Source: Eledone cirrhosa (Eukaryota). Taken from it: a DNA stretch of 64,000 nucleotides. Below the pieces are notes generated by a model. That model had not been told where the DNA came from. It made no database searches and worked only from the letters and a program-made list of their open reading frames with translations. The position numbers and the translations under genes are program-made. The stretch spans positions 10,912,001-10,976,000 of the forward strand of contig OZ024746.1 of NCBI GenBank assembly GCA_964016885.1, read 5' to 3'. Of this stretch, positions 47,153 through 50,300 are shown one piece after another (position 1 is the first letter of the stretch; every line of letters begins with the position of its first letter).

Positions 47153-47253
47153 TATAAATGAAGTAATTCCGTCGGAAAGGTCCAAGAAAAAAGAGTGCTC
47201 TATGTAGGTTACAGAGCTTAATAGTTATGTAATAAACAACATAAGGTAATTAT

Positions 47254-47312
47254 TTCATTTACCAGTGGTTTCTTGAAAGCAAACAAAATTTGCTTTCAAT
47301 CATCAGAATGAA
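47254..47312 (-). ncRNA. Type I hammerhead ribozyme, family B
   Basis: Reverse-complement copy of 47321-47379. Confidence 0.9.
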
Positions 47313-47320
47313 AAAATCTT

Positions 47321-47379
47321 TTCATTCTGATGATTGAAAGCAAATTTTGTTTGCTTTCAAGAAACCACTGGTAAATGAA
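47321..47379 (+). ncRNA. Type I hammerhead ribozyme, family B
   Basis: UUCAUU-CUGAUGA-UUGAAAGCAAA(UUUUG)UUUGCUUUCAA-GAAACC(ACU)GGUA-AAUGAA: all three stems are fully paired. Confidence 0.92.
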
Positions 47380-50300
47380 ATAATTACCTTATGTTGTTTA
47401 TTACATAACTATATATATATATATATATATATATACACTTTGGGAGGGTCATGTTGCCAATAAGAAACACACGCACCAGTTGCTTTCACTCTAATTTATT
47501 ATAAATTTAAAAAAAAAAAAAAATTTTTTTTTTATTTTTTCAAAAATATTTATAAATTTCCGGTTGGTTGGTTGGTTGGTTGGTTCCACAACCGGGCGGT
47601 TGTTCATATATTGTCAAAGTTCTTTCGTCACACATTCTGTTACCTCTTCAGTGACTGGGGATTCTTTTCTTTGTTTTGTGCCTCTCCTTTGTTCTGTCCT
47701 ACGCCATCTTGTTTTTGTGTGTGTTGTGTGCTTAGTTTGCGCATGTGTTACATCCGGGTGTCTGTGTGTGTTTTTATTTGTTTATTTATTTTTTTATTTA
47801 CAGGTTACTGGTTGGTTGTTTGTTCTATGTGTGCGTGTTTTCATTTTGTCCTTAATTGTAAGTTGTGATGTTGCTATTCCATTCATAGGGTTCATATTTC
47901 ATGTAAATTATTTCTGGTTTTATTCCTTTTCGATTTGATACTGGAAACCTGGAACGTAGAGCTGAAAGTAGGACAACGTTTTGTAGTGCATTTAACACCA
48001 AGTGTACAGGAGGACTTGAATTCGGCTAACGAAATGCTTGCCAACGTTTATGATTCTGTTGCTTACAGCAGCATAGTTCTCTGTAGTAGGTAGCTTATAT
48101 TTAGAAGATTTGGCCGTCTAGAGTTAAGAGTTTTTTCAAAGAACATGGAACAGACCTAGGATGCGAACACCCCATAATGTTGATAATTCTAACAAATTCA
48201 AGCAATGAGTATTACAAATTTAAACTATGAAATATCAAAACCGGTCCATGTTAACAATACCCCATGCTGCAGACTTCTGAATGATATAACTTTTTTGTTT
48301 AAAATGATATGTTCTTAGTTCGAATCCAGCCTGCTAGTAGGTACACATAGAAAAACATGACACATGATGACAATAGGAAATCAAATCGATTGAAACGTAG
48401 TGGGAATGTAAATATTTGATTTTTTTTTTGGGGGGGGGGGGGTTCATCTTCAAATGTGAAGTTCATAATTCAGAAACATATCATCATCGCCCTCCTCCTC
48501 CTCTTCCTCCTCTTCCTCCTCTTCCTCACCACCACCATCACCACCTCCTCCACCACCACTATTTAACGTTCGTGTTCCTTGCTTTAAAGTATGATTTAAA
48601 AGGTATTTGTTTCTCCAGCTCATGCAATAATGTGCCTCATAGTTTTGGCCGTTCAAAATCGAATGTTGTCGTGTATCCAGGATCGGAGTAATATATCGCC
48701 TTTCATATATTTTACTTTAATTTATAACTTATTTAAACCTGATATTTCTAAAAGATTGTTAGATATTTGCGAACGCAGAGTTAATTCTCTTTGTAAACCA
48801 TTACATTCACGCAATTACTATCTAAATCTAGCGCTGAGCATCAAGTTTCAAAGATTCTCTATATTTTAAATCATTCGCCATTGATCAGATGCGAAATTCT
48901 ATTTATAGCAGTTGCTGCTAAGAATTACACAACACGTATGATTCAATATCATATTGGCAGTGAAAATGTACAACTTGCTATGTATTACAACTATACTATG
49001 ATTATTATCATTGTAATATTTAGTACAACTACATATCTTTTACTTCACAAATTCTCTAGTATACATCTGATAAATAACTGTAGTTAATTGTTAAAACTTA
49101 TATAATTTAAAATCCTGAATTGATGCCCAGCGCTAGATTTAGATAGCTATCAACGCAATAGAAACCTTATGTACTGACGATAGCTCCTCTAGTCGATATT
49201 TCAAAGAGTTATCTAATCTCGTTGAACATCAAACGAATTCAGTTAATGAAATTGAAAAATACTTTATGTTTATCTTATCAAAGTCAGTTCCAAGTTGCTT
49301 AGAACGACAATTCCTTCTGGGATGGTTCATTTCATGTTTCAATGTTTAAGTTTTAAGCTAATCTATCCTAAATCTGAAATATTTGTTGGGTCTTCTTGAT
49401 GTTGTTGTTATTTGTTGAAAACTACCAAATCAATTCAAGATTCAATTATTCATACAACTCAGTTTCATTGTCATGGCATTATGTTTGTCTTGTTATAGTG
49501 TGCAGTGAAGGAAATTCAATGAAAGTGAGAGTTTTGAAACTATTTCCTATTATCTCAACGCGCCAAAATGCCTGAACTTATATTGGGACTTAATAACCGA
49601 GAAAGACTTCCGTCTGCTTTGTCTCATTTGACTCCTAAGAAATTGTTCATCCTATTTAAAGTTGGATTTCATTTCGTCCTACTAGAATTTCTCTTCACAT
49701 CAGATGAGTTCAATATGTTATTATTTCAGAAATGGTGGCATGTGTCGCCGACCAAATCTCGAGATGTGTGCTTAGTAAACAAAAATAAATCAATAATTTA
49801 AGAAGAAAGGGTCATTGATATGACTGAATAATCAGAATATCTAGATACATTCTTTGAACGTACCCTCTGAGCTCAGGTTTCATATAAAAGCGAGAGAAAT
49901 TCTTATCGTTCTTAATTTTAGGATCATCCAAAGAAATTACAAGCATGAATAGTAGTCAATTGATTGTATTATATCCCTTCCTTTCAAGCGTGAGACCTTG
50001 AAACATAATGAGAAATACATATTTTAAATTGAACTATGGTGGGTGCCGCAAAGTACGATGTAGACTCCCAGTGATGGTGATGTTACAATAGAGTTCCAAT
50101 TCCCCTTTAAAATCATTTTTGTTCAATGTTAGCGATATTGATATTCAGAGTCTATGAATGTCATTATTTTAAGTCTTTTTATATTTCTCCTTTCAAGTTT
50201 TACCTTAGGCAATAGAAAGACGTATTTTAAAACGAGGTATAACGAGCACTATAATAAGGATAATGATAAGGATGTGGTGAACAGAGAACACAACGCAGTT

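What the first reader, a model, noticed from the sequence alone, without database searches (positions are those of the whole stretch)
47158..47411. Ambisense fold-back: two perfect hammerheads back-to-back on opposite strands, 8 nt apart
Seen: a ~190-bp near-perfect palindrome with a fully canonical HHR on each strand (47254-47312 minus, 47321-47379 plus). The same design recurs at 35500-36300 and 63155-63504. Inference: transcription from either direction yields a long hairpin that competes with ribozyme folding. It could be an ADAR/Dicer substrate or a self-silencing switch, and superficially resembles viroid-like RNAs with ribozymes in both polarities. The simplest origin is the known inverted-pLTR formation during PLE integration.
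Basis: partly seen in the sequence, partly recalled or inferred. Interest (0 to 1): 0.75.

Follow-up and report, generated by a model that had tools for sequence, protein, structure and literature searches.

The report
Head-to-head Penelope retrotransposon stub
The palindrome is two short end-pieces of a very common Penelope-type jumping gene joined back to back in a TA repeat, a known insertion shape; its two ribozyme motifs are predicted to be switched off by pairing, and sister copies suggest both halves were likely written in one event from two fixed start points.

Summary
The palindrome is real: two 94-bp arms without a mismatch, each holding a type I hammerhead with an intact core. 'Fully canonical' overstates it, and it is not a viroid-like unit. 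It is a stub insertion of a Hydra-clade Penelope-like element (PLE); a full-length copy with RT/endonuclease ORF lies elsewhere in the genome. The family has thousands of ends and at least about 125 equally tight back-to-back pairs with varied junctions; this junction is unique. Opposite-strand hammerhead pairs and inverted pLTRs with a one-sided tail are in print (PMC4209133, PMC8557442). A read-through RNA is predicted to lock its ribozyme in a hairpin (72 kcal/mol). Of more value is the family's record of mechanism: 73 of 75 scorable pairs join one short end to one tailed end; junctions pile up at a site with a cap-like extra G (32 of 35), and some near the ribozyme cut. This favours two primers on sense RNA over snap-back. 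The scan noted the same reading earlier on other DNA of this genome. Reads spanning this junction were not found.

The parts
47153..47318 (-). Long arm: pLTR unit positions 1 to about 166 (hammerhead plus tail), 5'-truncated 5 nt before stem I
   Evidence: 95% to full-length copy L075, 98.8% to nearest genome copies
47153..47220 (-). One-sided 'tail' (unit 99 to about 166), sequence between the two fixed 3' ends; part of the 5' UTR in the full-length element
   Evidence: ATG at unit 280
47253..47313 (-). Type I hammerhead motif, predicted cut between 47260 and 47259
47315..47318 (.). 4-nt unpaired centre; belongs to the long arm; blunt arm-to-arm junction at 47318|47319 with no microhomology or filler; unique in the genome
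47319..47412 (+). Short arm: pLTR unit positions 5-98, ending at the family's fixed short end
47320..47380 (+). Type I hammerhead motif, predicted cut after 47373 (GUA)
47098..47156 (.). Left (TA)n target microsatellite
47410..47435 (.). Right (TA)n target microsatellite; a target-site duplication cannot be read inside (TA)n
35495..36302 (.). Sister insertion of the same family: tailed arm on minus, short arm on plus, both reaching back into the microsatellite-rich upstream part
63149..63590 (.). Same architecture in a different hammerhead family (167-bp arms, 19-nt centre, tail on the plus arm); its ORF was not traced

Best explanation
The locus is a head-to-head pair of 5'-truncated end repeats (pLTRs) of a young, high-copy Hydra-clade Penelope-like retrotransposon in a (TA)n tract, likely made in one insertion event in which both cut target strands primed reverse transcription, one at each of two fixed start sites, and any read-through RNA is predicted to bury its hammerhead in a 94-bp hairpin. 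Shown: family membership, two fixed 3' ends 63-70 nt apart, one short plus one tailed end per pair, variable 5' junctions, arms of one locus more alike than arms of different loci. Inferred: the endonuclease cuts both strands of (TA)n; the two cDNAs stop independently (at the RNA's capped start, at the ribozyme cut, or at random) and their 3' ends are joined by end-joining. Here both happened to stop 1-5 nt before stem I, which is all that 'two complete hammerheads 8 nt apart' needs. The stub lacks the inferred transcription start (unit -32/-49), so it is most likely inert or only a passive dsRNA source.
For: Full-length element L075: pLTR continues through the tail into an ORF with RWK, DKT, YRDDG, CxCx5C and GIY-YIG-type motifs; 339 database relatives at E<=1e-10. 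3,668 exact short ends and 2,985 exact read-through ends. In the first 117 Mb of contig C1, 19 of 21 end pairs within 1 kb are short+long back-to-back, chance 0.3 pairs. In three fetched samples (120 loci): 73 short+long, 1 short+short, 1 long+long, 45 unpaired or unscorable. In 8 of 39 ORF-bearing loci with both ends visible, all 8 are short+long, and the ORF arm ends short in 5 and long in 3 (read by eye); in those 5 neither arm can be a copy of the other. Arm-to-arm differences 2.2 within vs 9.6 between loci per 78 nt (31 of 41 loci). Extra G before unit -32 in 32 of 35 non-templated cases among 80 arms; extra G before unit -49 in 18 of 38 arms (by eye). PMC11167929 shows in vitro cleavage and extension of both strands and two RT start sites that define the tail.
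Against: For this single locus the long arm contains all of the short arm, so a snap-back copy is not excluded by content alone. One short+short (L195) and one long+long (L231) pair exist, and L114 has a second arm that runs past the short end before another insertion cuts it. Arm similarity could partly reflect later gene conversion. The tail (63-70 nt) is longer than the 30-40 bp in print. No read or contig spans this junction. The cap reading of the extra G rests on recalled knowledge of L1 and was not tested against RNA.
Confidence: 0.88

Rival explanations
1. Same element, but the inverted arm arises by snap-back: one cDNA (or an antisense template) folds and primes a copy of itself.
For: Proposed in PMC3846280 (discussion passage); some junctions sit in local palindromes (stem III, CCWGG); here the short arm is wholly contained in the long arm.
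Against: 5 of 8 ORF-bearing insertions have an ORF only in the short-ended arm and a tail only in the other; both arms often carry their own extra G (L227-L229, L232, L249, L256, L257); this junction has no pairing at the turning point to prime from.
Confidence: 0.12
2. The palindrome is a selected ambisense or self-silencing RNA device (viroid-like or a Dicer/ADAR switch) that spreads or is kept as a unit.
For: Perfect arms; both cores intact; one junction type (CCWGG) recurs in 8 of the first about 52 loci listed; a transcript would form long dsRNA.
Against: Exact junction unique; six loci with the CCWGG junction differ by 2-10 nt per 78 and fall in different subfamilies; both cores intact in only 20 of 40 tight pairs; 27 of 80 arms lack a complete hammerhead; one ribozyme per strand cannot release a monomer; perfect arms also in 3 of 30 other pairs.
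Confidence: 0.04
3. The palindrome is an assembly or amplification fold-back artefact.
For: No contig or read spans the junction in 8 runs laid.
Against: Flanks are not mirrored; the arms stop at the family's two fixed ends; raw reads of run X21 show the short end joined to (TA)n in 275 reads and strand-switch joints at 47318 in 18 reads from 2 starts (these may come from sister loci); short-read contigs break at such repeats.
Confidence: 0.03

Closest known systems
Hydra clade of Penelope-like elements, e.g. Hydra-1_Obim (PMC8557442)
   Same: RWK, DKT and CxCx5C motifs, C-terminal endonuclease without CCHH, (TA)n targets, hammerhead in the pLTR with an ACCA-n-UGGU stem III; N-terminal protein sequence similar to Hydra-1_Obim by eye.
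   Different: A distinct family: other hammerhead stems I/II, about 2-kb microsatellite-rich 3' region with captured ends of other PLE families, 63-70-nt tail; the Hydra-1_Obim entry says 'no pLTR'.
Inverted 5'-truncated pLTR with one-sided tail (PMC8557442 Fig. 2 legend; PMC3846280) and opposite-strand hammerhead pairs 100-700 bp apart in Schistosoma (PMC4209133)
   Same: Head-to-head arms, tail on one side only, hammerheads on opposite strands.
   Different: Here the gap is only 6-8 nt, the short end of a continuous distribution.
Poseidon PAc in vitro mechanism (PMC11167929)
   Same: Both target strands cut and extended; two RT start sites define the tail; AT-rich target.
   Different: PAc sites lie inside the ORF; here both lie in the 5' UTR. 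That paper saw no difference in start site between strands and no need for the ribozyme; the genome here shows a near-strict one-of-each pairing and a hint of ribozyme-cut templates.
Non-LTR retrozymes (bioRxiv 10.64898/2026.07.22.740005) and viroid-like RNAs with ribozymes in both polarities
   Same: Type I hammerhead, PLE origin (retrozymes); ribozyme on each strand (viroid-like).
   Different: No tandem same-strand ribozymes at this locus, so no monomer or circle; both strands hold one duplicated sequence; DNA insertion, no sign of RNA replication.

Membership tests
EN+ Penelope-like element | pLTR linked to a single RT + GIY-YIG-type ORF | tested here: met
   L075 and 39 further ORF loci; motifs read by eye; Pfam gave no hit for two ORF pieces
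EN+ Penelope-like element | Partial tandem and inverted 5'-truncated copies | tested here: met
EN+ Penelope-like element | Tail on one end only | tested here: met
   73 of 75 scorable pairs; tail 63-70 nt vs 30-40 in print
EN+ Penelope-like element | Hammerhead in the pLTR | tested here: met
EN+ Penelope-like element | Spliceosomal intron in the 5' region | not tested
   A pyrimidine tract + AG lies upstream of the pLTR; no RNA to test
Hydra clade | RWK and DKT motifs | tested here: met
   against definition
Hydra clade | CxCx5C linker, no CCHH in the endonuclease | tested here: met
   ORF translations, read by eye
Hydra clade | (TA)n insertion | tested here: met
Hydra clade | Placement in an RT tree with named Hydra elements | not tested
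   Reference proteins were seen only as supplement text
Canonical metazoan type I hammerhead | Conserved core and NUH triplet | tested here: met
   CUGAUGA, GAAA, GUA
Canonical metazoan type I hammerhead | G10.1-C11.1 pair, 4-bp helix II (PMC4209133) | tested here: not met
   U-A pair and 12-bp helix II; no Rfam hit
Canonical metazoan type I hammerhead | Self-cleavage | not testable with these tools
   Only folding and an indirect junction cluster
Non-LTR retrozyme | Two or more tandem same-strand hammerhead units | tested here: not met
   One hammerhead per strand at this locus; a tandem array of the same pLTR exists elsewhere (C28)
Viroid-like ambisense RNA | Unit with a fixed sequence and distinct ribozymes in the two polarities | tested here: not met
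   One duplicated ribozyme, unique junction, varied junctions in the family
Viroid-like ambisense RNA | Circular RNA replicating through RNA | not testable with these tools
   Needs RNA data

The most novel reading that the evidence does not exclude
Hydra-clade PLEs integrate by obligate asymmetric twin priming: one RT complex primes both ends of a (TA)n break on sense RNA, always one at the short and one at the tailed start site; the two cDNAs run off at the capped 5' end or, in a minority, at the hammerhead cut, and are joined head to head. The thousands of stubs would then be a fossil map of the element's transcription start and the first genomic sign that a PLE hammerhead cleaves the template in vivo.
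Probability: 0.55. Interest if true: 0.6.

Novelty: new member of a known kind. Interest (0 to 1): 0.3.

Why it matters
The locus itself is ordinary PLE debris. The family statistics bear on two open points that the papers read here leave open: how PLE inverted repeats and tails form (PMC8557442 calls for mechanistic work; PMC3846280 proposes self-priming on an antisense template) and whether the hammerhead is used in vivo (PMC11167929 found it dispensable in vitro). The one-short-one-long rule, the cap-like G and the cluster near the cut site give exact coordinates for a direct test. Hundreds of such hairpins could also feed dsRNA into host silencing if read through, which is untested.

Tried and rejected
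Rfam whole-window scan was swamped by microsatellite miRNA look-alikes; 150 of 233 rows were shown, none a hammerhead; the focused scan found none either. First guess that the tail is the ORF's N-terminus was wrong: the ATG is at unit 280, and the pattern built on that guess gave 4 uninformative loci. A Hydra-type ORF in L065/L066 beside the same 3' module is another family, apparently nested. Pfam found nothing in two ORF pieces of this family. The look-up of sequencing runs: no RNA holder listed; run X17 (RNA by guess) laid nothing; neither says anything on expression. Eight runs laid: no piece spans the junction; no long reads were offered. The regex end-typing (3 short+short) was unreliable and was redone by alignment. 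The 18 short+long loci L164-L183 were chosen after seeing the pairs and are left out of the 73/75 tally, as are the 13 pairs in the top-30 set; one locus (C1:71.22 Mb) and one (C1:89.36 Mb) occur in more than one set. Ten of 41 loci with broken arms were dropped before the distance test. No host gene was identified in the window; only degraded non-LTR and PLE ORFs were seen. I did not identify the host species. Supplements of the bioRxiv preprint and of PMC11167929, PMC4209133 and PMC3846280 were not read and may hold junction data.

Full report
Observation. The window holds a 192-bp palindrome: arms 47221-47314 and 47319-47412, 94 bp without a mismatch around a 4-nt centre; shuffles give at most 12 bp. 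Each strand has one type I hammerhead (47253-47313 minus, 47320-47380 plus) with an intact core, a GUA triplet and stems of 7, 12 and 3 bp. The single arm folds into the hammerhead as its minimum-energy structure, and 16 hand-picked relatives keep the core and show compensatory changes in stems I and II. It is not fully canonical: U-A instead of G-C closes stem II, helix II is long, helix III is short and quasi-palindromic, as PMC4209133 describes for metazoan PLE hammerheads that cleave poorly as monomers (parts 1-2 of 4 read); Rfam does not detect it. The structure is asymmetric: the minus arm carries about 63-68 further bases, and both ends abut (TA)n.

What it is. The 161-nt long arm (my 'unit', position 1 = 47318) has 1,747 first-look candidates in the 3.0-Gb genome, the best 40 at about 98% identity. 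[quoted passage not shown] These are the signatures of the Hydra clade in PMC8557442 (section 11 read whole; passages), and the protein resembles Hydra-1_Obim in that paper's supplement by eye (no tool alignment). 339 database proteins match at E<=1e-10 (best 57% over the N-terminal 495 aa). So the finding is a pair of pLTR ends of a Hydra-clade PLE.

It is one draw from a distribution. A pattern for hammerhead starts within 30 nt back to back gave 128 forward and 123 reverse matches with varied centres (4 of 40 fetched belong to a sister subfamily); this exact junction occurs once. Among 80 arms sampled by their 3' ends, 5' stops range from -109 or beyond to +79, and 27 cut into or past the hammerhead. 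Both cores are intact in 20 of 40 tight pairs, and 3 of 30 others also have mismatch-free arms over 78 nt. Six loci sharing the recurring CCWGG junction differ by 2-10 nt and span subfamilies, so it recurs by microhomology rather than spreading as a unit. The layout is in print: inverted 5'-truncated copy and tail at one end (PMC8557442), head-to-head palindromes (PMC3846280, passages), and hammerhead pairs on opposite strands 100-700 bp apart (PMC4209133).

How it likely forms. The 3' ends are fixed: 3,668 exact short ends (unit 98 then TA) and 2,985 exact ends that read on into the tail. In the first 117 Mb of C1, 19 of 21 pairs within 1 kb are one short plus one long, back to back; the other two are one converging short+short and one tandem long+long; 0.3 pairs are expected by chance. 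Three fetched samples (120 loci) gave 73 short+long, 1 short+short, 1 long+long, 45 unpaired or unscorable (p about 1e-19 against 50%); L114 may be a further exception. Arms of a locus are closer to each other than to other loci (2.2 vs 9.6 differences per 78 nt; 31 of 41 loci). In 8 of 39 ORF-bearing loci both ends are visible; the ORF arm ends short in 5 and long in 3 (by eye). In those 5, one arm alone has the ORF and the other alone has the tail, so neither is a copy of the other, which a snap-back model cannot give. PMC11167929 (parts 1-2 of 4) shows a PLE protein cutting and extending both strands and starting at two sites that bound the tail. Two primers, one per site, is the inference that fits.

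Where cDNAs stop. Earlier scan notes suggested that junctions mark the RNA start; I tested this in this family. Among 80 arms from 40 of 124 loci, 43 stop at the G at unit -32 or one to two templated bases beyond; of the 35 with a non-templated base before it, 32 have G. At unit -49, 18 of 38 arms start with an extra G where the template has C (by eye). An extra G from copying the cap is recalled from L1 work, not from a call. Near the ribozyme cut (after unit 59), 15 of 30 arms from 15 of 83 loci start at 58-61, against 4.7 expected under a simple null; AT-rich chance matches and a local palindrome blur this, so it is a hint only. The window's own arms start at units 1 and 5 with a blunt join: neither site, an ordinary truncation. 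I did not find the one-of-each rule or the cap signature in the passages read or in the listings of searches; that is not an exhaustive check.

What it does. Probably nothing of its own. It lacks the inferred start site. A read-through RNA from either strand meets the antisense arm first and folds into a 94-bp hairpin (-152 and -158 kcal/mol) that beats the best hammerhead-containing fold by 72 kcal/mol: off, not a switch. One ribozyme per strand cannot release a monomer, unlike tandem retrozymes (bioRxiv 10.64898/2026.07.22.740005, part 1 of 5). Dicer or ADAR action on such a hairpin is plausible from general knowledge but untested.

Artefact check. No contig or read spans the junction in eight runs, so the locus is not directly confirmed. 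Against an artefact: unmirrored flanks, ends at the two family sites, and raw reads of another sample showing the short end joined to (TA)n (275 reads) and strand switches at 47318 (18 reads, 2 starts; possibly sister loci).

Verdict. Real, explained, a new member of a known kind. Interest 0.3: low for the locus, raised by the family's testable record of PLE integration, which the scan had already noted in other windows of this genome.

Noticed in passing
window 34796-35392: 5'-truncated PLE of another family on the minus strand (linker + GIY-YIG, PF01541 E 2e-7) with a short inverted arm at its 5' end; the family-A insertion at 35495 sits in the microsatellite next to it.
   Followed up: partly
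window 37740-37855: Perfect 58-bp palindrome without spacer of that same second family, turning inside a hammerhead-like stem II region.
   Followed up: no
window 13798-14133 and 19508-19580: Further palindromes (168-bp arms, no spacer; 31-bp arms) of other families, the first flanked by microsatellites.
   Followed up: no
window 13511-13758, 25000-25148, 25571-26004: More ends of the 63.1-63.6 kb hammerhead family, again with two fixed ends about 83 nt apart.
   Followed up: partly
L067-L070 (G000:C28:45.834-45.857 Mb): Tandem array of eight 2-4 kb units, each ending in this family's hammerhead and tail, opened by a head-to-head pair: retrozyme-like.
   Followed up: partly
L075:7870-8236: The family's 3' region carries fixed, captured end-pieces of two other PLE families inside its own microsatellites, propagated in many copies.
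   Followed up: partly
L065-L066 (G000:C1:268.770-268.773 Mb): A second Hydra-type ORF with a long asparagine-rich insert between RT and endonuclease, like the N-rich inserts described in PMC3846280.
   Followed up: no
window 47440-47960: Another very high-copy repeat directly right of the finding (read depth far above the flanks); a piece recurs at 14164-14236.
   Followed up: no
window 137-664, 44088-44930, 55010-55567: Degraded ORFs that look like non-LTR retrotransposon RT/endonuclease C-termini (resemblance recalled; no informative Pfam hit for the first two).
   Followed up: partly
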